NCBI GenBank assembly: GCA_017396395.1
Contig: JAFQMF010000013.1
Coordinates: 41,161-105,160, forward strand
DNA: 64,000 nt
From: Clostridia bacterium
GTDB lineage: Bacteria; Bacillota; Clostridia; RUG12999
Direction of reading: 5' to 3'
Both the position numbers and the translations under genes were made by a program. A model generated the notes under the pieces. The model saw nothing but the letters and a program-made list of their open reading frames with translations. It ran no database searches and was not told where the DNA came from. Positions 12,084-59,735 of this stretch are shown in pieces (within the stretch, counting starts at the first letter, position 1; each line of letters opens with the position of its first letter).

Positions 12084-13103
12084 TTATCTGAAAAGTTTCA
12101 TAAATGCCTTTGCCATATTAGGCGCAAAGGATTCTGCACCAGGCCCTAAAATAATAAGACCATTTCTACCATCGTCAAAATAATTTACCTTCTGGTTAAG
12201 TGCCTCTGCAATAGCTCTGAGAGGAAGTAAAGTTCTTCCGTTAATTATCTGTGCAGGCACATCAATGGGAATATTTTCACCGCAAACAGAAATTTCTTTT
12301 GCACCAATTTTTATAATAATGCCCGCTAAATCAGTTTCAATAATAACCTTGTTATTTGCTTCGTCAAATCTCACTACTGCACCAAGGCTTTCAGCAACAA
12401 ATCTTGCAGGAAGAAGTGTTCTTCCGTTTTTTACAACAGGAGCTACATCAAGAGGAGTCTCTACTCCCTTAATAAACGCCTTATTGCTTCCCACATACAT
12501 AATAATATTTTCGCTGTCTTCCGCGTCAGGAAGCACCTCTACAGGACCTTCTGCCGAAGCGGCTCCGCCAATAATAGTGGCATTTGCATCAGCATAACGA
12601 ACACGGCAATCAAAACAACCGGGAACTTCCGATCCGTTTACATAGCAGGTCTGTATAATTGCAGAATCAAGATTGTCATATACCGTTCTCCACACACCCA
12701 CTCGCTGTACAGGGTCAGAGATTGTCCACAAATACTGCCCCGCTGAAAATGCCTGCCCCGACCCAATTGAAATTCCAACCCAGGAATTGTCTTTAAAGTC
12801 AACCCATTCTCTTGTAGCAATGGGTTTTGTAGCAATAGTACTTTCATAACTATCTGCCCATACATAAAGTCTGATAGTAAGTGCACCTACAGAATCCCCA
12901 TAGCTGGGACAGTTCATATCAAAAGCCGAAAATGGTTTATCTATAGACAACTTTTGTGCTATTACAGTGCCTGTTTTTAATTCGTTTGCAGTATGGGTTG
13001 CAGCCGTATCATAAAGATATACAAGTTCACCTGCTGCCATAGTGGCTAATCCGCAACTGAATAAAATTGCAACAATTGTTAAAACAATAAAAAGTTTTTT
13101 CAT
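12084..13103 (-). CDS. copper amine oxidase N-terminal (stalk) domain repeat protein, secreted
   Basis: signal peptide MKKLFIVLTIVAILFSCG; two C-terminal repeats NGRTLLPARFVAESLGAVV / NGRTLLPLRAIAEALNQKV typical of the Cu_amine_oxidN1 domain; start set at internal ATG with GGAGG RBS. Confidence 0.8.
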   Translation of the reverse strand: MKKLFIVLTIVAILFSCGLATMAAGELVYLYDTAATHTANELKTGTVIAQKLSIDKPFSAFDMNCPSYGDSVGALTIRLYVWADSYESTIATKPIATREWVDFKDNSWVGISIGSGQAFSAGQYLWTISDPVQRVGVWRTVYDNLDSAIIQTCYVNGSEVPGCFDCRVRYADANATIIGGAASAEGPVEVLPDAEDSENIIMYVGSNKAFIKGVETPLDVAPVVKNGRTLLPARFVAESLGAVVRFDEANNKVIIETDLAGIIIKIGAKEISVCGENIPIDVPAQIINGRTLLPLRAIAEALNQKVNYFDDGRNGLIILGPGAESFAPNMAKAFMKLFR

Positions 13104-13398
13104 ATAGGAAATACCTCCAGGTGTGTTAATCATTATATATTTTATCATATTTTTATATAATTCACAATACTTTTTCCTTACAAAAAAAAACTAAAATTTT
13201 GTGCAGATTAACTAAAACAATATATCATATAAAAAACAACCAATTTTTTCGGTAATATGACTAATTTTTAACAAAATTTTTAGTTGTTATTCTATACTGG
13301 GATACTTGACGCAAATTACAAAAAGTAGTATAATATAAACTAATTACTATATATTATTTATAATCACAATAATTATAAAATATTTGGAGGTTTTAAAA

Positions 13399-27427: not shown

Positions 27428-28117
27428 ATGGTAGGTATTATAGGTGCTATGGATGTGGAAGTACAGGCACTTAAGGATGCAGTTTTAAATCCAGAGAGAA
27501 AAACGGTCAGCGGAATTGAATTTGTAAAAGGAACAATTTCGGGCAAAGATGTGGTTATAGCAAAAGCAGGTGTTGGAAAGGTTAATGCTGCAGTTTGTGC
27601 ACAAACAATGACTCTTTTATACTCTCCCGATGTTATTGTCAACACCGGTGTGGCAGGGTCACTTTCTGAACAAATATCCGTTGGGGATATTGTTATAGGA
27701 ACATCAACCTTGCAACATGATATGGATACCAGTCCCCTTGGTGACCCTGTAGGTTTTATTTCAGGAATTGATAAGGTTTTTATGGATTGCGACAAAGAGG
27801 TTCAAAAAAAGCTTCTTAAAGCCTCAGAAAAACTTACAAATATGAAAATAACCAGTGGAATTATTGCATCCGGAGATGTATTTTTAAATGACGGAGAAAA
27901 AAGAGAAAGAATTTCTTCTTTGTTTGGTGCTGTTGCAGGAGAAATGGAAGGAGCAAGTATAGGACAAGTGTGTGTAATCAATAATACACCCTACTGTGTT
28001 GTGCGTGCAATATCAGATAATGCAGACGGCAGTTCCCATGTGGATTACCCCACCTTTGTAAAAAAAGCAGCGGAAAATTCCACTAAGCTTATGATAGAGT
28101 TTATAAAGATATATTAA
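27428..28117 (+). CDS. mtnN: 5'-methylthioadenosine/S-adenosylhomocysteine nucleosidase
   Basis: MVGIIGAMDVEV...AGVGKVNAA...SDNADG motifs of the PNP_UDP_1 MTA/SAH nucleosidase. Confidence 0.9.
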   Translation: MVGIIGAMDVEVQALKDAVLNPERKTVSGIEFVKGTISGKDVVIAKAGVGKVNAAVCAQTMTLLYSPDVIVNTGVAGSLSEQISVGDIVIGTSTLQHDMDTSPLGDPVGFISGIDKVFMDCDKEVQKKLLKASEKLTNMKITSGIIASGDVFLNDGEKRERISSLFGAVAGEMEGASIGQVCVINNTPYCVVRAISDNADGSSHVDYPTFVKKAAENSTKLMIEFIKIY

Positions 28118-28137
28118 ATTTTGGTTAATATAAAGTT

Positions 28138-28172
28138 CAAAAAGCAGAGTTTTAAAAACTCTGCTTTTTTCG
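28138..28172. terminator. bidirectional rho-independent terminator
   Basis: AAAGCAGAGTTTTAAAAACTCTGCTTTTTT. Confidence 0.8.
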
Positions 28173-28185
28173 TTTTATATAATTT

Positions 28186-28587
28186 TTAAACTTCTGTAAA
28201 TACAAAGGATACTATCTGGCAGGTTGGAATAATTGCTGCAGAGCCGTACATACTACCATTGCAGTAATTTGAGTTCCAGAATAAACCGTTGTTGCATCCA
28301 CATTCTCCAAGAGGATTGGGTGGTGCTGAGGGAAGATTTGTTATGATTTTTACTGAATTTTTGTTTGCCCATACCAAAAGACCTGTAAAACCGCTGCCTG
28401 ATACGCCACCGCTGCTTGTAAAAATTGTTACAACTCTGCCAATGTTGTTGCAAAGTGTTTCTACAAGGGGCGAACCGCAAGAAGGTCCGCAGTCGCAGCC
28501 ACAAGAAGGGGCGTGGTCGCATCCGCAGGAAGGGCCATGGTCGCAGCCGTTGCCACAATATCCGCCGCTATTAAAATTGTTATACAT
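28186..28587 (-). CDS. small cysteine-rich protein with CGCDxxPSCGCD repeats; putative CotY/CotZ-like spore coat/exosporium protein
   Basis: translation MYNNFNSGGYCGNGCDHGPSCGCDHAPSCGCDCGPSCG...VVTIFTSSGG...ECGCNNGLFWNSNYCNG; AAGGAGG RBS 9 nt upstream of ATG at 28587; family assignment is tentative and rests on the architecture Cys-rich N-terminus, middle IFTS motif, Cys-rich C-terminus. Confidence 0.7.
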   Translation of the reverse strand: MYNNFNSGGYCGNGCDHGPSCGCDHAPSCGCDCGPSCGSPLVETLCNNIGRVVTIFTSSGGVSGSGFTGLLVWANKNSVKIITNLPSAPPNPLGECGCNNGLFWNSNYCNGSMYGSAAIIPTCQIVSFVFTEV

Positions 28588-28759
28588 ATATGTTTGCCTC
28601 CTTATAATATGTTTAAAGGCGTGTTCTAATCGCCACAGTATATTATATGAAAAGCAAAACTTTTTGACACAAAATAGAAATAAAAACATTAAAAACTGTT
28701 GCAGATAAAGCTAAATTGTGATAGAATAATGTTATACAAAGAAATGGAGGAAAATACAT

Positions 28760-29953
28760 ATGGCTAATATAAATAACAGAATGATGGAACTGGGAAAGGT
28801 TCGCTCGGTAATCCGCGAAACCTTTGAATATGGTAATAAAAGAGCAAAGGAAATCGGCAGAGAAAATGTCTATGACTTTTCTTTAGGCAATCCAAGTGTT
28901 CCGACTCCTGAAATTGTTGATAAGGAAATGGTAAATTTAATTAATGACAATACTGTTGCAGTTCACGGATATACCTCTGCTCAGGGTGCAGAGCCTACCA
29001 GAATTGCTATAGCTCAGGATATAAACCGCAGATTTTCCGCCGGCGTTACAAAGGATGATATTTATATGACCTGCGGTGCAGCTGCATCTCTTACAATTTC
29101 TATTTCCGCTTTATGTAACAAAGGAGATGAAATTATAGCTATTGCTCCCTTCTTTCCTGAATATAGGGTTTTTGTGGAATCTGCCGGAGCAAAGCTTGTG
29201 GTAGTGCCTGCTGATACAGAAAATTTTCAAATTAATTTTAAAGAGTTATCCAGACTTATTACACCTAAAACAAAAGGTATAATTATAAATACTCCCAACA
29301 ATCCTACAGGTGTTGTATTTTCTGAAAATACTATAAACCGTCTTTGTGATATTCTTCGAGAAAAATCAAAGGAATTTGGGAATCCTGTATATCTTATTAC
29401 AGATGAGCCTTATCGTGAGCTTGTGTATGATACTGATGCAAAGGTACCTTATCTTATTAACTGCTATGACCACACTCTGGTATGCTATTCTTACAGTAAA
29501 TCCCTTTCTCTTCCAGGCGACAGAATAGGTTATATTGTGGTTTCCAACAAAATGCCTGAACATGAGGATATTTATGCGGCAGTTTGCGGTGCAGGCAGAG
29601 CACTTGGTTTTGTGTGTGCTCCTTCCATTATGCAAAGGGCAATTCTTCCTGCTCTTGGAAAAACCTCTGACCTTTCTGTATATAAAAAGAACAGAGACCT
29701 TTTGTACGAGTCACTTACAAAAATGGGTTATACCTGTGTACATCCGGATGGTGCATTTTACCTGTTTGTAAAATCCCCTGTTCCCGATGCATCTGAGTTT
29801 TGCTTAAAGGCAAGAGAGTATGATATTCTTCTTGTTCCCTCTGACAGTTTTGGCTGTACAGGATATGTAAGAATTGCATACTGCGTAACAACCGAAATGA
29901 TACAGCGTAGCCTCCCTGCATTTGAAAAATTGGCAGAAAGCTATGGGTTATAA
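28760..29953 (+). CDS. pyridoxal-phosphate-dependent aminotransferase, class I/II (aspartate/aromatic aminotransferase-like)
   Basis: fold type I aminotransferase pattern including the Lys-containing YSYSKSLSLPGDRIGY. Confidence 0.88.
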   Translation: MANINNRMMELGKVRSVIRETFEYGNKRAKEIGRENVYDFSLGNPSVPTPEIVDKEMVNLINDNTVAVHGYTSAQGAEPTRIAIAQDINRRFSAGVTKDDIYMTCGAAASLTISISALCNKGDEIIAIAPFFPEYRVFVESAGAKLVVVPADTENFQINFKELSRLITPKTKGIIINTPNNPTGVVFSENTINRLCDILREKSKEFGNPVYLITDEPYRELVYDTDAKVPYLINCYDHTLVCYSYSKSLSLPGDRIGYIVVSNKMPEHEDIYAAVCGAGRALGFVCAPSIMQRAILPALGKTSDLSVYKKNRDLLYESLTKMGYTCVHPDGAFYLFVKSPVPDASEFCLKAREYDILLVPSDSFGCTGYVRIAYCVTTEMIQRSLPAFEKLAESYGL

Positions 29954-29954
29954 G

Positions 29955-29988
29955 AAAAAAAGCCGAGATTTATCTCGGCTTTTTTTAC
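29955..29988. terminator. bidirectional rho-independent terminator
   Basis: AAAAAAAGCCGAGATTTATCTCGGCTTTTTTT. Confidence 0.8.
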
Positions 29989-31070
29989 GCTACTTTATTT
30001 TCTCCGTTTGCGTAGTTTATAAAAACTCCCTGCTGTACATTATAGCAATATACGCAAAAAGACAAGCCTTTCCCCTTATCTTCTACTGAATAGGCTTCCA
30101 TTAAAACACCACTTGCTACAAGATTATCCCCCTGAAAAACAGGAGTTACTCTATACATAACGTGATTTCCTGTTTTGTCAATATAGCTGTCCACCATATT
30201 TTCAAAGGGTAACATTCCTTCCACGTTCATATACCTTGTGCCGGTAATTAAATTACGGGGATTGGCATTTTCTCCTGTTAACTGAAATCCCAGAAGGTGA
30301 CATCTGTTATAAAGGTATTTTCCCGAAATGAAATCATATTGTCTGTTTTTCCACCCTGTAGGCTTAATACTGCTTATATTCCCTCTTTTTTCAGTTGGCA
30401 TTGTATCCAAGGATACAGAAGCCACACATACATCGCATCTTCCAAGACCATCTAAACTGCTGTAATATTCAAAAGAGGCAGGAATAATTTCATAATCCTT
30501 AAAAAAAGGTTTATTATTATTTATTTTTATATACGCACTTTTGGAGTATTCTTTTAACTCTCCCAAAAGATAATCGTATTCCCCCTGCTGGAAAAGGTCA
30601 CGGATAATGTAAACCTTTTCTGTAGCTTCGTCCCATGCCACCCCAAGATTAAAGCTCTCTGCAATAAAACGGATGGGAAGCATCGTCCTGTCATTATAAA
30701 CAGAAGGAGCAACATCCAAAGTAAACAAGGCTCCGTTTAAATAAGCTTTTTTACTGTCTATAATAAGCTTTATAGTATCATTTTCAAGAGTAAGAACAGC
30801 CGTTTTCTCTTTTCCTTTCCAGTCCACCTTGCCACCAAAGGCTTCAATAATAGCACGAACAGGCACTAATGTTCTGCCTGTTTTTATTATAGGCTCTGTA
30901 CCTCTGCCTGGGTCAATTTCCTGATTTTCTCCGTTTACTGCCATTAAAGGATTGCCAATCTGCATACTTATTACAACATCTTCAGGCTTTTGGGATGCAA
31001 TTACATGAGGAGATAAAAGGAGGAAGCATATTAAAAATGCAAATACTCTATAAATTCTGTTTTTGTTCAT
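29985..31070 (-). CDS. secreted DNA/RNA non-specific endonuclease (EndA/Endonuclease_NS_2-like) fused to a copper amine oxidase N-terminal stalk domain
   Basis: signal peptide MNKNRIYRVFAFLICFLLLSPHVIAS; CuAO-N repeat RTLVPVRAIIEAFGGKV / RTMLPIRFIAESFNLGV; nuclease block YNRCHLLGFQLTGENANPRNLITGT aligns to the FDRGHLLGYAL...NPKNI region of EndA. Confidence 0.78.
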   Translation of the reverse strand: MNKNRIYRVFAFLICFLLLSPHVIASQKPEDVVISMQIGNPLMAVNGENQEIDPGRGTEPIIKTGRTLVPVRAIIEAFGGKVDWKGKEKTAVLTLENDTIKLIIDSKKAYLNGALFTLDVAPSVYNDRTMLPIRFIAESFNLGVAWDEATEKVYIIRDLFQQGEYDYLLGELKEYSKSAYIKINNNKPFFKDYEIIPASFEYYSSLDGLGRCDVCVASVSLDTMPTEKRGNISSIKPTGWKNRQYDFISGKYLYNRCHLLGFQLTGENANPRNLITGTRYMNVEGMLPFENMVDSYIDKTGNHVMYRVTPVFQGDNLVASGVLMEAYSVEDKGKGLSFCVYCYNVQQGVFINYANGENKVA

Positions 31071-37838: not shown

Positions 37839-40028
37839 ATGGCCAGAGATAATTCCAAAACTATGATGCGTAATCGAATTCTCGCTTTTGCACTTATATT
37901 CCTTTCTGTAATAGTGTTTTTATGTGGACGTATTTTTTATATTCAGATGATTAAGGGCAATACCTACAAGGCTATGGCTCTTGACCAGCAAACAAAGGAA
38001 AAGGAAATTACTCCCAAAAGAGGAACTATATATGACAGAAACGGCAAAGAACTGGCTGTAAGTGCTACTGTTGATACTGTTGTAGCTGACCCTAAAATTA
38101 TTAAATCAAAGAAAAATGCCGAGGATATTGCCAACACACTTTCCCCTATTTTAGGTATGGAAAAAGCGGATATACTTGCTATTGTTAACAAAGAAAGCAG
38201 TTTTGAGTGGGTAGCAAAAAAGATTGATTCAGAAAAATCTGCTCAGATACGCAAATACATTTCCGGCAAGGATGAAAAAGGAAACAAGCTTTCCAAAAAG
38301 GAGATGGAAGGCCACGATTTAAGCGGTATTTCCCTTATTGAGGATACTAAAAGATTTTATCCAGGCGGCAGTCTTGCTTCCCATGTTATAGGCTTTACAG
38401 GCACTGATAATCAGGGACTGGAGGGCATTGAGGCAATTTATGACAAATTTTTAAAAGGTAATGCAGGCAAAATTGTAACCTCAAATAAAAGTACAGGCTC
38501 TCTTCCTCAGGATTATGAAAAATACTTTAATGCTCAGGACGGGGACAATATTGTTCTTACTATAGACTCAAATATTCAGCGTTTTGTAGAAAAGGCACTT
38601 GATGATGCATATTTAAAATATCAGGCTCTTGGTGGTGCTTGTGTACTTGTTACAAACCCTAACACGGGAGAAATTCTTGCTATGGCAACTCGCCCCACTT
38701 TTGACCTTAACAGTCCTCGTGTTCTTTCAACAGACCAGAGTGAGCCTGCAACACTTGAACAGCTTCAGGAGCGTTGGAGAAATAAAGTTGTTGTAGATGC
38801 TTATGAACCAGGTTCAGTATTTAAGCTTATTACCTGTTCTATTGCATTAGAGGAAAAGGTTACAAATCTTACTGACCCATATTTCTGCCCGGGATATCTG
38901 GTAGTAGGCGGACAAAAAATTCATTGTTTTAAAACTACAGGACACGGTGCGAGTAATCTTTTAAAGGGAACTGTGGATTCCTGTAACCCCGTTTATATGC
39001 AGGTTGCATCCAAAATCGGAAAAGATACTATGTTCAAATATTTTAAATCCTTTGGTTTCAGAGAAACTACAGGGTTTGACCTTCCCGGCGAGGCAGTAGG
39101 TTCATATTGGAACTATAATAATTATAACGAAACGGAGCTTGCCACCTCCTCCTTTGGTCAGGGTTTTACTGTTACACCATTACAGATGGCAACAGCAGTT
39201 GGTGCTCTTGTTAATGGCGGATATTTATATAAGCCCTTTATAGTTAAAGAAATTGTAGATAGCGAAGGAAATCGCGTTGAATCTACAACTCCTACACGCA
39301 TCAGACAGGTACTTTCCAAAGAAACATCTGATACTATGCGTTATATTATGCAAACGACTCTTGTGGAATCGGGAAGTCTTGCAAAGGTAGATGGCTACGA
39401 AATAGGCGGAAAAAGCGGAACAAGTGAAAAACTTCCCAGAGGAAACGGACAGTATATAGGCTCTTACTGCAGTGTAGCTCCTATAAATGATCCACAGATT
39501 TTATGCCTTGTTATTATTGACGACCCAAGAGGGGCAAGCTACTATGGCGGACAGACCGCTGCTCCTGTTGCAAGCAGTATTATGGAGCAGGTGCTTCAGT
39601 ATTATAAAGTTCAGCCAAACGGCGATCAAGTAAAAGCTTCTTCTGATGATACAGTAATTCCTTCAGTTATTGGAAAAACCGCAGAGGATGCAAAGAGAAT
39701 TGTTTCTTCCTTTGCACTTCAGTGTACTATATATGGTTCAGGTGATACTGTAATTTCCCAAGACCCCCCTGCAGGAACCCATGTGCGTAACAATTCCTAC
39801 GTTTCCATTACTCTTGGCACCTCTGCCGATGCTTCAGATGAGGTAGCAGTTCCCAGTCTTATAGGAAAAAGTATGGAGGAAGTAAATACAATAGTCGCAG
39901 AATCGGGACTTACTTTAAAGGTGGCAGGTGCATCAGGCGGAAATGTAATATCCCTTAATCAAAATCCTGTTGCAGGCAAAAAAGTAAAACGAGGAAGCAT
40001 GGTAACCGTAACATTTGGACAGCAATAA
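37839..40028 (+). CDS. class B penicillin-binding protein (FtsI/SpoVD family) with two C-terminal PASTA domains
   Basis: dimerisation domain; transpeptidase motifs SVFK, SCN, KSGT; two PASTA repeats at the C-terminus. Confidence 0.9.
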   Translation: MARDNSKTMMRNRILAFALIFLSVIVFLCGRIFYIQMIKGNTYKAMALDQQTKEKEITPKRGTIYDRNGKELAVSATVDTVVADPKIIKSKKNAEDIANTLSPILGMEKADILAIVNKESSFEWVAKKIDSEKSAQIRKYISGKDEKGNKLSKKEMEGHDLSGISLIEDTKRFYPGGSLASHVIGFTGTDNQGLEGIEAIYDKFLKGNAGKIVTSNKSTGSLPQDYEKYFNAQDGDNIVLTIDSNIQRFVEKALDDAYLKYQALGGACVLVTNPNTGEILAMATRPTFDLNSPRVLSTDQSEPATLEQLQERWRNKVVVDAYEPGSVFKLITCSIALEEKVTNLTDPYFCPGYLVVGGQKIHCFKTTGHGASNLLKGTVDSCNPVYMQVASKIGKDTMFKYFKSFGFRETTGFDLPGEAVGSYWNYNNYNETELATSSFGQGFTVTPLQMATAVGALVNGGYLYKPFIVKEIVDSEGNRVESTTPTRIRQVLSKETSDTMRYIMQTTLVESGSLAKVDGYEIGGKSGTSEKLPRGNGQYIGSYCSVAPINDPQILCLVIIDDPRGASYYGGQTAAPVASSIMEQVLQYYKVQPNGDQVKASSDDTVIPSVIGKTAEDAKRIVSSFALQCTIYGSGDTVISQDPPAGTHVRNNSYVSITLGTSADASDEVAVPSLIGKSMEEVNTIVAESGLTLKVAGASGGNVISLNQNPVAGKKVKRGSMVTVTFGQQ

Positions 40029-57759: not shown

Positions 57760-57923
57760 GTTTTTTATTACAATTTCTCCATTATGCACACAAGAAAGGA
57801 CATGATATTACCTTTTTTTATCAATTAAATTGAAAAAAATGTCATTTTTTCCTTTTACTTTATTTATAAAAGTTACATTATTTGCAAATACTTGTTACAA
57901 AAAACAAAAAAGGATTTGATAAT

Positions 57924-58364
57924 ATGAATGATGAACAATACAGCAAAATTGTAAATAATTATGCTCCTTCCTCTCCTCTTTTTACAGATATGCTTAAAGC
58001 GTTTTTTGCAGGGGGGATTTTGTGCCTGTTAGGGGAATTTTTCAGAAGTTTTCTGATTTCTGCGGATTTTTCCGTTACCACAGCCTCTACATGGGTTTCT
58101 ATAATGGTAATTATTATAGCTCAAATACTGTCAGGGTTTGGAATATATGAAAAAGCTGCAAAGTATGCAGGTGCGGGTTTTAGTGTGCCTATTTCAGGCT
58201 TTGCAAACTCTGTTGTTTCCCCTGCTATTGAATATCACACAGAAGGACTTATTCTTGGACTTGGTGCAAAGCTGTTTACAATTGCAGGTCCAGTAATTGT
58301 ATATGGAATTACTTCCTCTGTGGCGGCAGGAATAATTTATTATATAGGAGGGCTATTAAAATGA
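57924..58364 (+). CDS. spoVAC: stage V sporulation protein AC
   Basis: SpoVAC/SpoVAEB family membrane protein; 4-bp overlap with the following spoVAD. Confidence 0.88.
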   Translation: MNDEQYSKIVNNYAPSSPLFTDMLKAFFAGGILCLLGEFFRSFLISADFSVTTASTWVSIMVIIIAQILSGFGIYEKAAKYAGAGFSVPISGFANSVVSPAIEYHTEGLILGLGAKLFTIAGPVIVYGITSSVAAGIIYYIGGLLK

Positions 58365-59380
58365 CAAAAAAAACAGGTAAGCAAACAATAATTTTTAATA
58401 ATCCGCCTCATATTCTCTCCTATGTGGCGGTAGGCGGTAAGGAGGAGGCAAAAGGACCTCTGGGCAAGCATTTTGATACCATTTTCCCTGATCCCTACTT
58501 AGGCGAAGCAAGCTGGGAAAAAGCCGAGTGTAAGCTTCAATATTCTGCAGTAAAAACCTTGCTTGAAAAATCAAACTATCTGCCACAGGACATTGACATT
58601 ATGTTCGGAGGTGATCTTATAAACCAATGTACAAGCTCATATTTCGCTGCACGTGATTTACAGATTCCTCTGTATGGAATATACGGAGCCTGCTCCACTA
58701 TGGCTGAAGCTCTTCATTTAGGCTGTATGGCAATAGAGGGAGATTTTGCAGAAAATATTATTGCTGTTACCTCAAGTCACTTCTGTTCCTCTGAAAAACA
58801 GTTTCGGTTTCCTCTTGAATACGGCGGTCAGCGACCTCCTACTTCCCAGTGGACTGTAACAGCCTCAGGAGCAGTTCTTGTTACTAAAGAAACGGGTGAT
58901 ATTATAATTGATAAAATTACCACAGGGAAAATTGTTGATAAGGGTATTACGGATGCCAATAATATGGGGGCGGCGATGGCCCCTGCAGCGGCAGATACAA
59001 TTAAAACTCATTTTGAGGATACCAAACTCGACTACGATTATTACGATTTAATCGTTACAGGGGATTTAGGAAAGCTGGGAAAAACCCTTCTTGACAGACT
59101 TTTAAAAGAAGAAGGGATAGATTTATCAGAGCGTCTTGACGACTGCGGTTGTATGATTTATAACATTGACAAGCAGGACAAACACTGCGGAGGAAGCGGT
59201 TGTGGTTGCAGTGCTTCTGTGCTTGCCTCGTATATTCTCCCAATGGTAAAGGAAGAAAAATTCAAAAAGGTGCTTTTTGTACCCACAGGAGCGTTAATGA
59301 GTCCCCTTACCTGCAAGCAGGGCGAAAGCATTGCAGGAGTGGCTCACGCAGTCAGTATAACAAAAAGGGAGGAAAATTAA
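58361..59380 (+). CDS. spoVAD: stage V sporulation protein AD (thiolase-like fold)
   Basis: SpoVAD pattern LGGKEEAKGPLGKHFD...YGIYGACST; ~339 aa. Confidence 0.9.
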   Translation: MTKKTGKQTIIFNNPPHILSYVAVGGKEEAKGPLGKHFDTIFPDPYLGEASWEKAECKLQYSAVKTLLEKSNYLPQDIDIMFGGDLINQCTSSYFAARDLQIPLYGIYGACSTMAEALHLGCMAIEGDFAENIIAVTSSHFCSSEKQFRFPLEYGGQRPPTSQWTVTASGAVLVTKETGDIIIDKITTGKIVDKGITDANNMGAAMAPAAADTIKTHFEDTKLDYDYYDLIVTGDLGKLGKTLLDRLLKEEGIDLSERLDDCGCMIYNIDKQDKHCGGSGCGCSASVLASYILPMVKEEKFKKVLFVPTGALMSPLTCKQGESIAGVAHAVSITKREEN

Positions 59381-59381
59381 T

Positions 59382-59735
59382 ATGAATTATTTATGGGCGT
59401 TTATTGTAGGCGGACTGCTTTGTGCTATCGGTCAGCTACTGATAGATAAAACAAAGCTTACTCCTGCCAGAATTTTAGTTTTTTATGTAATTTCAGGAGT
59501 ATTTTTAACTGTTATTGGCGTATATGCACCTCTTGTAAAGCTGGCAGGGGCAGGAGCAACTCTTCCGCTTACAGGCTTTGGTTATGCCCTTGCAAACGGA
59601 GTTAAAAAAGCAGTGGAAGCTGATGGATTTTTAGGAATATTTACAGGGGGACTTACTGCTACTGCAGGAGGAATTACCGTTGCTGTAGTCTTTGGTTTTA
59701 TAATTGCTCTTATTTTCCGACCTCGTGAAAAATAG
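59382..59735 (+). CDS. spoVAE: stage V sporulation protein AE (SpoVAEB-type)
   Basis: 117-aa membrane protein homologous to SpoVAC, directly following spoVAD. Confidence 0.85.
   Translation: MNYLWAFIVGGLLCAIGQLLIDKTKLTPARILVFYVISGVFLTVIGVYAPLVKLAGAGATLPLTGFGYALANGVKKAVEADGFLGIFTGGLTATAGGITVAVVFGFIIALIFRPREK

What the first reader, a model, noticed from the sequence alone, without database searches (positions are those of the whole stretch)
28186..28587. Small cysteine-rich protein with tandem CGCDH(G/A)PSCGCD repeats, candidate CotY/CotZ-like spore surface protein
The 133-aa product has no signal peptide and an N-terminal run YCGNGCDHGPSCGCDHAPSCGCDCGPSCG encoded by near-perfect tandem nucleotide repeats. 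The middle block RVVTIFTSSGG...LLVWANKNSV and the second Cys cluster ECGCNNGLFWNSNYCNG...PTCQIV follow it. The layout (Cys-rich N-terminus, conserved middle IFTS/K block, Cys-rich C-terminus) recalls Bacillus CotY/CotZ/ExsY, which form disulfide cross-linked exosporium or crust lattices. The organism is a spore former (cwlD, spoVA, spoVD/E, SipL-like present). An upstream CATATAATA element resembles the -10 of mother-cell sigma (sigma-K: CATAnnnTA) promoters. The DNA-level repeats (CGCAGCCACAAGAAGGGGCGTGGTCGCATCCGCAGGAAGGGCCATGGTCGCAGCC on the plus strand) could vary in copy number between strains.
Basis: partly seen in the sequence, partly recalled or inferred. Interest (0 to 1): 0.6.

Follow-up and report, generated by a model that had tools for sequence, protein, structure and literature searches.

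The report
Clostridial Sm-fold cysteine-rich spore protein
This small cysteine-rich gene is real, but it is not a CotY/CotZ relative: it belongs to an unnamed protein family of spore-forming Clostridia with an Sm-type ring fold like the Bacillus spore-surface proteins GerQ, CgeA and MnxE/F, and it carries a late-sporulation (sigma-K type) promoter, so it is most likely a new kind of clostridial spore coat building block.

Summary
The ORF (28587..28186, minus strand, 133 aa, 13 Cys) and its three 24-nt repeats are real. The repeats are 75-79% identical, not near-perfect. The CotY/CotZ reading fails: there is no Pfam or NCBIfam hit, and hhalign against validated CotZ/CotY gives probability 0.1%.

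The protein belongs to an unannotated family: 479 clusters at 90% identity, 364 representatives at 50%, no Pfam model, and every source name is 'hypothetical'. Its genome hits are almost all labelled Clostridia. Only a 68-residue core is conserved; the Cys-rich N-tail and the beta3-beta4 loop are hypervariable.

Across 83 family loci, 51 carry GTAACA-like-N15/16-CATAnnnT[A/G] upstream, against 0.085 expected from shuffles and 7/457 control genes. This matches mapped C. difficile sigma-K promoters and not sigma-E ones. The window's own -35 (GTGTCA) deviates and also reads as sigma-A-like.

Best reading: a late mother-cell spore coat or outer-layer protein that forms rings, with cross-linking or metal-binding Cys tails. 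The function is inferred, not shown.

The parts
28186..28587 (-). Coding sequence, 133 aa plus stop (ATG 28587..28585, TAA 28188..28186). It is a member of an unnamed Clostridia family.
   Evidence: The family HMM built from A2 hits this ORF at E 1.3e-38. There are 24 close relatives, 364 representatives at 50% identity and 479 clusters at 90% identity.
28474..28587 (-). N-terminal tail, residues 1-38. It is predicted disordered, rich in Cys/Gly/Asp/His, and hypervariable between orthologues.
   Evidence: pLDDT is below 60. It is not alignable beyond close orthologues; tail length ranges 5-149 aa across the family.
28477..28548 (-). Three tandem 24-nt units encoding GCDHGPSC / GCDHAPSC / GCDCGPSC (residues 14-37).
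   Evidence: TRF period 24, 3.0 copies, 78% matches. Units are 18-19/24 identical. The score exceeds all 600 shuffles.
28189..28473 (-). Sm-like core domain, residues 39-133. Elements: helix 40-47, strands 52-57, 67-74, 78-84, 116-121 and 125-130. It contains the family signature NIGRVVTIFTxSGGxSGxGFTGLL.
28243..28335 (-). Insertion between strands 3 and 4 (residues 85-115, LPSAPPNPLGECGCNNGLFWNSNYCNGSMYG). It is a low-confidence, Cys-containing loop at the position of the variable Sm1-Sm2 linker.
   Evidence: pLDDT is 56-65. Across the family this loop is 16-111 aa long, with Cys 8.8%, Gly 14.9% and Asn 11.3%.
28641..28649 (-). -10 element CATATAATA, of the mother-cell sigma type. It is identical to the CATATAAT -10 of C. 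difficile sigK P2.
   Evidence: CATAnnnT[AG] occurs in 75/83 family upstreams, against 10.8 in shuffles and 70/457 controls. 'CA' precedes TA.[TA]AT in 41% of family cases against 6% of controls. PMC3789822.
28665..28670 (-). -35 element GTGTCA, 15 nt upstream of the -10. It is a diverged version of the family's GTAACA.
   Evidence: It keeps C-17 and A-16 but has G/T where the family has A and A/C. It also scores 10/12 as a sigma-A promoter with TATAAT.
28618..28634 (-). 5' UTR stem-loop GGCG-N9-CGCC, just downstream of the predicted transcription start.
   Evidence: A stem-loop sits at the same position in most family UTRs: mean z -2.27 over 54 UTRs. The window UTR has z -2.08.
28597..28603 (-). 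Ribosome-binding site AAGGAGG.
   Evidence: It is conserved in all close orthologues.
28139..28169 (.). Palindromic intrinsic terminator shared with the convergent nucleosidase gene.
   Evidence: 14-pair stem with T-runs on both sides.

Best explanation
The gene encodes a 13.6-kDa cytoplasmic protein of an unnamed family whose genome hits are almost all Clostridia.

Shown:
- A conserved core of about 68 residues has a confidently predicted Sm-type fold: an N-terminal helix plus five strands.
- The core is flanked by a hypervariable, disordered, Cys-rich N-terminal tail. In this protein the tail holds three GCDHxPSC repeats.
- The core is interrupted by a variable Cys/Gly/Asn-rich loop between strands 3 and 4.
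- The gene is monocistronic, with a strong RBS, a 5' stem-loop and its own terminator.
- Across the family the genes carry a GTAACA-N15/16-CATAnnnTA promoter of the type mapped for sigma-K in C. difficile.

Inferred:
- The gene is transcribed late in the mother cell by sigma-K RNA polymerase.
- The protein assembles through its Sm core into rings, as GerQ (9-mer rings stacked into filaments), CgeA (hexamer) and MnxE3F3 (hexamer) do.
- The rings are deposited in the spore coat or outermost layer.
- The exposed Cys-rich tail and loop lock the rings together or to partner proteins by disulfide bonds, or they bind metal ions.
- Adjacent paralogues in other species may form mixed rings.
For: Family:
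- 24 close relatives, 364 representatives at 50% identity and 479 clusters at 90% identity. None has a Pfam model and every source name is 'hypothetical'.
- 169 genome hits; of the 79 loci kept, nearly all are labelled Clostridia or Bacillota (Ruminococcus, Oscillospiraceae, Eubacteriaceae, Defluviitaleaceae, Clostridium, Anaerocolumna).
- The window genome has spoVA and spoVD genes.

Fold:
- The AF2 core has pLDDT 87-97.
- Foldseek gives the same set.
- Weak Pfam hits of relatives are all to Sm/SH3-like models: RimP C-terminal domain in 34/146, SM-ATX in 4, Spore_GerQ in 2.
- Ring assemblies of the three spore proteins are documented in PMC11405398, PMC13577073 and PMC5622069.

Promoter:
- The full bipartite motif occurs in 51/83 upstreams, against 0.085 in shuffles (maximum 2) and 7/457 controls.
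- The unbiased top hexamer is TGTAAC, 31/83 against 8/457.
- GTAAC is present in 9/25 mapped C. difficile sigma-K promoters and 0/47 sigma-E promoters.

Coat-like traits:
- The tails and loops are low-complexity and rich in Cys/Gly/Asn/Tyr/Asp-Arg.
- Clusters of 2-4 paralogues occur in 29 loci.
- There is no conserved operon partner.
- The core is poor in basic residues: K+R 5.6%, net charge -0.3.
Against: - There are no expression, proteomic or localisation data for any family member.
- There is no sequence-level homology to GerQ: hhalign probability 2%, E 0.025.
- The window's own -35 (GTGTCA) departs from the family consensus at two informative positions. With the embedded TATAAT it is also a 10/12 sigma-A-type promoter. 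One orthologue (L001) has AATATAAT instead of CATATAAT.
- Ring formation and disulfide cross-linking were not modelled.
- No known coat genes are consistently nearby.
Confidence: 0.55

Rival explanations
1. It is a CotY/CotZ/ExsY-family crust or exosporium lattice protein.
For: It is Cys-rich and small, sits in a spore former and has a CATA-type -10. It contains a short 'IFTS' string as CotZ does.
Against: There is no PF10612 hit at E<=10, and PF10612 is not among the 25 most-matched Pfam families in a scan of 146 relatives. hhalign against validated CotZ+CotY gives probability 0.1% and E 0.46 over 17 columns only. The Cys-rich regions are not conserved within its own family. The fold is Sm-like.
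Confidence: 0.02
2. It is an Hfq/Lsm-like RNA-binding ring that acts as a post-transcriptional regulator in the sporulating cell. It is not a structural coat component.
Against: There is no Pfam Hfq or LSM hit. The core is nearly uncharged: K+R 5.6% and net charge -0.3, against 11.8% and pI 10 for the E. coli Hfq core. The HNAI motif is absent from the window protein (FVFTEV). Hypervariable Cys/Gly/Asn/Tyr-rich tails and loops, and clusters of 2-4 paralogues, are typical of coat proteins and not of RNA chaperones.
Confidence: 0.1
3. It is a metal-binding accessory ring like MnxE/MnxF. The Cys/His/Asp tail (CGCDH repeats) would bind Cu, Zn or Fe and serve or scaffold a spore-surface enzyme, or buffer metals.
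Against: No multicopper oxidase or other enzyme gene is adjacent in the window (PNP_UDP_1 and an aminotransferase flank it), and none recurs in relatives. The metal-ligand-like tail is not conserved in the family. There is no sequence similarity to MnxE/F.
Confidence: 0.1
4. It is a sigma-A-transcribed vegetative protein, for example related to stress or redox, that has nothing to do with spores.
For: The window promoter reads GTGTCA-17-TATAAT, 10/12 to the sigma-A consensus. TATAAT is kept in all 7 close orthologues, and one lacks the C of CATA.
Against: Across the family, sigma-A-type scores are no better than for control genes. The CA before the TA and the TGTAAC -35 are specifically enriched, and both match mapped sigma-K promoters. 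The family's genome hits are almost all labelled Clostridia.
Confidence: 0.15
5. It is a precursor of a secreted Cys-rich peptide (bacteriocin or RiPP) or a metallothionein.
For: It is small and has Cys-rich repeats.
Against: It has no leader or signal peptide. No modification, transport or immunity genes are nearby. The conserved part is a folded 68-residue domain and the Cys-rich part is the non-conserved one. No family hits were found.
Confidence: 0.02

Closest known systems
GerQ (YwdL), Bacillus spore coat protein, Pfam PF09671, PDB 8zra
   Different: There is no detectable sequence homology: hhalign probability 2%, and PF09671 is not hit by the window protein. GerQ's tail is a Tgl cross-linking substrate through Lys2, 4 and 5 (PMC11405398). 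Here the tail has no Lys and is Cys-rich. The family hits here are labelled Clostridia, whereas the named GerQ hits are mostly Bacillales. This family also has a long Cys-rich beta3-beta4 loop and the SGGxSGxGFTG signature.
CgeA, Bacillus subtilis spore crust protein, PDB 9l9d
   Different: No sequence similarity was found. CgeA is a glycosylated crust protein that is not Cys-rich. It is described in B. subtilis.
MnxE/MnxF accessory subunits of the Bacillus sp. PL-12 manganese oxidase, PDB 9bxa
   Different: Mnx genes sit in an operon with the multicopper oxidase MnxG. No such partner is found here. There is no sequence similarity.
Hfq / Sm / Lsm RNA-binding rings
   Different: There are no Sm/Hfq sequence motifs and no Pfam hit. 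The core is nearly uncharged. It has Cys-rich low-complexity appendages and a sporulation-type promoter.
CotY / CotZ / ExsY (PF10612) and other Cys-rich spore lattice proteins (CsxA, CdeC)
   Same: They would be functional analogues if the Cys-rich tail cross-links a spore surface layer. All are small, Cys-rich and made in the mother cell.
   Different: They are unrelated in sequence. In this family the Cys-rich parts are the variable parts, not the conserved scaffold.

Membership tests
CotY/CotZ/ExsY (Pfam PF10612 Spore-coat_CotZ) | Significant match to the family HMM or profile. | tested here: not met
   No hit at E<=10. PF10612 is not among the 25 most-matched families for 146 relatives. 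hhalign against CotZ+CotY gives probability 0.1%, E 0.46. The comparators were validated at 92 and 90 bits.
CotY/CotZ/ExsY (Pfam PF10612 Spore-coat_CotZ) | Conserved cysteine pattern that forms the cross-linked lattice. | tested here: not met
   The cysteines of the tail and loop are not conserved even within this protein's own family. The pattern is not alignable to CotZ.
GerQ (Pfam PF09671 Spore_GerQ) | Significant match to the family HMM or profile. | tested here: not met
   There is no hit for the window protein. 2/146 relatives hit at E 0.044, below the cut-off. hhalign against a 54-sequence GerQ profile gives probability 2%, E 0.025.
GerQ (Pfam PF09671 Spore_GerQ) | Core fold as in the solved GerQ filament subunit. 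| tested here: met
GerQ (Pfam PF09671 Spore_GerQ) | N-terminal lysines used for Tgl cross-linking. | tested here: not met
   Residues 1-38 contain no Lys (sequence).
GerQ (Pfam PF09671 Spore_GerQ) | Role in recruiting CwlJ. | not testable with these tools
   A CwlJ link cannot be tested with these tools.
Sm / Lsm / Hfq superfamily (fold level) | N-terminal helix followed by five strongly bent antiparallel strands. | tested here: met
Sm / Lsm / Hfq superfamily (fold level) | Sm1/Sm2 or Hfq sequence motifs and a basic RNA-binding surface. | tested here: not met
   There are no LSM or Hfq Pfam hits. SM-ATX is hit by 4/146 at E>=0.037. Core K+R is 5.6% and net charge -0.3.
Sm / Lsm / Hfq superfamily (fold level) | Assembly into 6-9-membered rings. 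| not testable with these tools
Sigma-K regulon (late mother-cell genes) | -35 'AC' about 16-17 nt upstream of a CATAnnnTA -10. | tested here: inconclusive
   Family level: met in 51/83 upstreams against 7/457 controls, and it matches mapped C. difficile sigma-K promoters but not sigma-E ones. Window gene: the -10 is exact (CATATAATA), but the -35 is GTGTCA (TC instead of AC). It also scores 10/12 as sigma-A.
Sigma-K regulon (late mother-cell genes) | Expression that depends on sigK during sporulation. | not testable with these tools
   No transcriptome is available for any carrier organism.
MnxE/MnxF-type accessory ring | Encoded next to a multicopper oxidase partner. | tested here: not met
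   The flanking genes are PNP_UDP_1 and an aminotransferase. There is no recurrent enzyme neighbour in 85 loci.
Unnamed Clostridia family (signature IGxTVTIFTxSGGxSGxGFTGxL ... GSVxxIPxxxIxxFxxNxI) | Match to the family profile over the full core. | tested here: met
   hmmsearch with the A2 profile gives E 1.3e-38 and 129 bits. The invariant residues G50, G60, G61, G64, G66, F67, T68, G69, P89, G115, I120, P121 and I125 are all present.

The most novel reading that the evidence does not exclude
This family is a widespread, previously unrecognised structural component of clostridial spore coats. Together with GerQ, CgeA and MnxE/F it would show that Sm-type rings are a general, recurrent building block of endospore surface layers in both Bacilli and Clostridia. 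The rings would carry lineage-specific hypervariable cross-linking appendages: Lys/Gln for transglutaminase in GerQ, and Cys, Tyr or Gly repeats here.
Probability: 0.4. Interest if true: 0.65.

Novelty: new variant of a known kind. Interest (0 to 1): 0.5.

Why it matters
To my knowledge, the spore coats of gut and rumen Clostridia (Ruminococcaceae, Oscillospiraceae, Lachnospiraceae, Defluviitaleaceae) are almost uncharacterised, and few Bacillus coat proteins have clostridial homologues.

This family has several hundred sequence clusters, a confident fold, a sporulation-type promoter and paralogue clusters. That makes it a concrete, testable candidate for a major coat or outer-layer component in these organisms.

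It would link three recently solved Bacillus spore-surface proteins (GerQ, CgeA, MnxE/F) to a common Sm-ring architecture. A search of the paper library for 'Sm-like' with 'spore coat' or 'exosporium' listed no paper among its top 10 that uses 'Sm-like'.

The family signature and its promoter could also serve as markers of sporulation capacity in metagenome-assembled genomes.

Tried and rejected
- Pfam and NCBIfam scans of the protein found nothing.
- PDB sequence searches with the protein and with the 146-sequence profile found nothing.
- hhalign against GerQ, as a single sequence and as a profile, was not significant, although the aligned register is the structurally expected one.
- hhalign against CotZ/CotY found nothing.
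- The AFDB Foldseek library was not available.
- Source names for 120+ relatives and 10 cluster look-ups gave only 'hypothetical protein', apart from a few evident mis-labels.
- Neighbourhood clustering over 85 loci found no conserved partner. The largest 'cluster' was the antisense shadow ORF of the gene itself.
- Three extra genome neighbourhoods showed no coat genes.
- RNAalifold on 7 orthologous 5' UTRs gave no consensus because MAFFT did not align the stems. Single-sequence folding was used instead.
- Rfam found no family at the gathering score in 27900-29000.
- The bacteriocin/RiPP and metallothionein readings were rejected for lack of any family hit, leader or accessory genes.
- Strain-level repeat copy-number variation was not seen in the single near-identical sequence.

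Full report
**1. The observation**

- AAGGAGG lies at 28603..28597. Every close orthologue begins with the same MYNNF... residues behind the same RBS.
- Gene callers elsewhere used a longer 167-aa ORF that starts at 28689 (P0001). That ORF is mis-started, because it includes the promoter.
- The protein has 13 Cys, a calculated pI of 4.9 and no N-terminal hydrophobic segment.

The repeat is real. TRF finds three copies of a 24-nt unit at 28478..28548 (score 86, 78% matches).
- On the coding strand the units encode GCDHGPSC, GCDHAPSC and GCDCGPSC (residues 14-37). They share 18-19 of 24 nt.
- On the CDS alone the TRF score is 94. The maximum was 44 in 300 codon shuffles and 64 when only the tail codons were shuffled.
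- So the repeat is real but imperfect, not 'near-perfect'.
- The only near-identical sequence in the databases has the same three units and one C37Y substitution. Copy-number variation between strains is therefore not documented.

**2. It is not CotY/CotZ**

- Pfam and NCBIfam give no hit at E<=10.
- PF10612 is not among the 25 most-matched Pfam families when 146 relatives are scanned.
hhalign of the family profile against them gives probability 0.1% and E 0.46.

**3. What family it is**

- A first search found 24 relatives.
- A profile search of 1.84 billion representatives found 364 clusters at E<=1e-3, of which 261 were at E<=1e-10.
- A profile search of the 90% clusters found 479.
- None carries a Pfam domain. 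Nearly every source name is 'hypothetical protein', apart from a few evident mis-labels.
- In one genome per species, 169 places encode a relative. Of the 79 loci kept, nearly all are labelled Ruminococcus, Oscillospiraceae, Eubacteriaceae, Defluviitaleaceae, Clostridium, Anaerocolumna or other Clostridia/Bacillota. Two non-Firmicute MAG labels are probably binning errors.
- The window itself encodes SpoVAC, SpoVAD, SpoVAE and a SpoVD-type PBP.

The alignments show that only a core is conserved: L..L...IG(R/Q)(V/T)VT(I/V)FTxSGGxSGxGFTG(L/V)L...(N/D)...(V/I)(K/R)L... then ...G(S/T)xxxIPxxxIxxFxxNxI.
- The N-terminal tail is 5-149 aa long and is not conserved.
- The segment between the two core halves is 16-111 aa long and is not conserved. 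Its composition is Cys 8.8%, Gly 14.9% and Asn 11.3%.
- In different lineages these segments are Cys-rich, Gly/Tyr/Asn-rich or Asp/Arg-rich.

**4. Fold**

- With the 146-sequence alignment, AlphaFold2 gives pLDDT 87-97 for residues 40-95 and 112-133.
- The elements are helix 40-47 and strands 52-57, 67-74, 78-84, 116-121 and 125-130. This is the Sm topology.
- The Cys-containing loop (residues 85-115) sits at the position of the variable Sm1-Sm2 linker.

Structure searches:

| Search | Match | Score |
|---|---|---|
| Foldseek | MnxF | E 3.9e-3 |
| Foldseek | GerQ | E 2e-2 |
| Foldseek | Hfq/Sm | E 2e-2 to 1e-1 |

- No Foldseek match reaches E 1e-3.
- The weak Pfam hits among relatives point the same way: RimP C-terminal SH3/Sm-like domain in 34/146, SM-ATX in 4 and Spore_GerQ in 2.
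- I recovered the true GerQ core sequence from the PDB and built a 54-sequence GerQ profile. hhalign against it gives only probability 2% and E 0.025, although in the structurally expected register.
- The relationship to GerQ is therefore at fold level only.
- GerQ forms nine-subunit rings that stack into filaments (PMC11405398). CgeA is a ring-shaped hexamer (PMC13577073). MnxE3F3 is a copper-binding alternating hexamer (PMC5622069).

**5. Expression signals**

I located the start codons of 82 relatives and compared the 150 nt upstream of 83 family genes (82 relatives plus the window).

| Test | Family | Shuffles | Control genes in the same loci |
|---|---|---|---|
| GT[AGC][ATC]C[AC]-N14-17-CATAnnnT[AG], spacers found 15 or 16 | 51/83 | mean 0.085, max 2 (200 dinucleotide shuffles) | 7/457 |
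| -10 alone | 75/83 | 10.8 | 70/457 |
| 'CA' preceding TA.[TA]AT | 41% of occurrences | not run | 6% of occurrences |
| Hexamer TGTAAC, the most enriched | 31/83 | not run | 8/457 |

- Sigma-A-type scores are no higher in the family than in controls.
- The logo is tGTAACa-N15/16-CATAnTAT(A/G).
- In their Table S7 of mapped promoters, GTAAC occurs in 9/25 sigma-K promoters, including cotA and cotE, and in 0/47 sigma-E promoters. My family pattern hits 6/25 and 0/47 respectively.
- The family promoter is therefore of the sigma-K type.

The window gene needs a caveat.
- Its -10 is CATATAATA (28649..28641). This contains the CATATAAT -10 of C. difficile sigK P2.
- Its -35 is GTGTCA (28670..28665). 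It keeps C-17 and A-16 but not the preceding A and A/C.
- The pair GTGTCA-17-TATAAT also scores 10/12 as a sigma-A promoter.
- Among the seven closest orthologues the -35 is GTGTCA (five), GTGACA (one) or TTAACA (one). One orthologue has AATATAAT instead of CATATAAT.
- Sigma-K dependence of this particular gene is therefore inferred from the family, not shown.

Other signals:
- Most family 5' UTRs start with a stem-loop a few nucleotides after the -10. Over 54 UTRs the mean z is -2.27, and 70% fall below -1.5. The stem sequences differ between lineages.
- In the window this stem-loop is GGCG-N9-CGCC at 28634..28618; the whole UTR folds with z -2.08. It looks like a 5' mRNA stabiliser.
- A palindromic terminator at 28139..28169 closes the gene.
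- The flanking genes are a convergent nucleosidase (PNP_UDP_1) and a divergent aminotransferase. Both are housekeeping genes.
- No known RNA family reaches its gathering score in 27900-29000.

**6. Genomic context in relatives**

- The genes are monocistronic or lie in clusters of 2-4 paralogues in tandem, divergent or convergent orientation. This is seen in 29 loci, and four Clostridium loci have four copies.
- Clustering all neighbours within 4 kb gave no recurrent partner. The biggest cluster is the antisense shadow ORF of the gene itself.
- Single observations that might be meaningful but were not pursued: a Tgl transglutaminase gene 6 kb away in L005/L006, and a thioredoxin gene divergent from the pair in Anaerocolumna.

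**7. Interpretation**

Shown:
- The gene is real, and so is its imperfect three-unit Cys repeat.
- It belongs to an unannotated family whose genome hits are almost all Clostridia.
- The core has a confidently predicted Sm fold.
- Its closest solved structure is a spore coat protein.
- The family carries a sigma-K-type promoter.

Inferred:
- The protein is made late in the mother cell.
- It assembles into rings through the Sm core.
- It becomes part of the coat or outermost spore layer.
- Its Cys-rich tail and loop act as cross-linking or metal-binding appendages.

I put this at about 0.55.

The main rivals are a sigma-A-driven non-spore function (0.15), an Hfq-like RNA-binding role (0.10) and an MnxE/F-like metal-binding accessory ring (0.10).
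- The RNA-binding role is weakened by the nearly uncharged core, with K+R 5.6% against 11.8% in Hfq, and by the coat-like low-complexity appendages.
- The accessory-ring reading is a sub-variant of the spore-surface reading. It is weakened by the absence of any partner enzyme gene.

CotY/CotZ membership and the bacteriocin/metallothionein readings are effectively excluded.

**8. Novelty and score**

- Sm-like ring proteins on spore surfaces are a known kind, but only through three recent Bacillus structures. The top 10 results of a library search for 'Sm-like' with 'spore coat' or 'exosporium' contain no paper that uses 'Sm-like'.
- This clostridial family has no model in Pfam or NCBIfam and no characterised member that I could find.
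- I rate it a new variant of a known kind, with interest 0.5. It is a solid, testable lead into the poorly known coats of gut and rumen Clostridia, but its function is still inferred.

Noticed in passing
window 28618-28634 (-), and the 5' UTRs of L002, L008-L011, L022, L036, L052, L057, L058, L064, L077 and others: A stem-loop starts a few nucleotides after the -10 in most family genes. The stem sequences are lineage-specific: GGACaagGGTCC in Clostridium, GGAGTgtacaACTCC in Defluviitaleaceae, GTGG..CCAC and GGCG..CGCC in the window clade. Mean folding z is -2.27 over 54 UTRs. It is probably a 5' mRNA stabiliser.
   Followed up: partly
window 28588-28636 (-): In the window's UTR the minimum-energy fold pairs GCCUUU with AAGGAG of the ribosome-binding site (z -2.08). 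This is a possible alternative, translation-masking structure.
   Followed up: no
L058, L060, L066, L077 (four copies each); 29 loci in all: Family genes occur as clusters of 2-4 adjacent paralogues in tandem, divergent or convergent orientation. This suggests hetero-oligomeric rings, as in MnxE3F3. The window has a single copy in 64 kb.
   Followed up: partly
L005/L006 1141-1905; L087 6069-6383: A Tgl spore-coat transglutaminase gene (PF20085) lies 6 kb from a convergent family pair. A thioredoxin gene is divergent from the family pair in Anaerocolumna sp. AGMB13020. Each is a single case.
   Followed up: no
window 28588-28689 (-): Gene callers elsewhere used the 167-aa ORF that starts at 28689 (P0001). 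That start lies upstream of the predicted promoter, has no RBS and is not conserved. The true start is 28587.
   Followed up: yes
window 28289-28708 (+): This 139-aa antisense ORF recurs in relatives only because it shadows the conserved gene. It formed the largest 'neighbour' cluster and is an artefact.
   Followed up: yes
window 57882-59735 (+) and 37839-40028 (+): A spoVAC-spoVAD-spoVAE operon and a SpoVD-type penicillin-binding protein are present. The SpoVD match scores 622 bits against a cut-off of 688 and lies in a cell-division gene cluster. They confirm an endospore-forming host.
   Followed up: yes
window 29985-31070 (-) and 12084-13148 (-): Two proteins carry copper amine oxidase N-terminal-like domains (PF07833). 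One is fused to a non-specific DNA/RNA endonuclease domain (PF13930).
   Followed up: no
L061 (Ignavibacteriales MAG) and P0234 (Anaerolineaceae MAG): Family members occur on contigs binned to non-Firmicute MAGs. This is probably binning contamination, but lateral transfer was not excluded.
   Followed up: no
family alignment A2, C-termini: Many relatives end in FVHNAI or FTHNAI, sometimes followed by GSGW. This recalls the YKHAI motif of Hfq. The window clade has FVFxE(I/V) instead. The significance is unknown.
   Followed up: no
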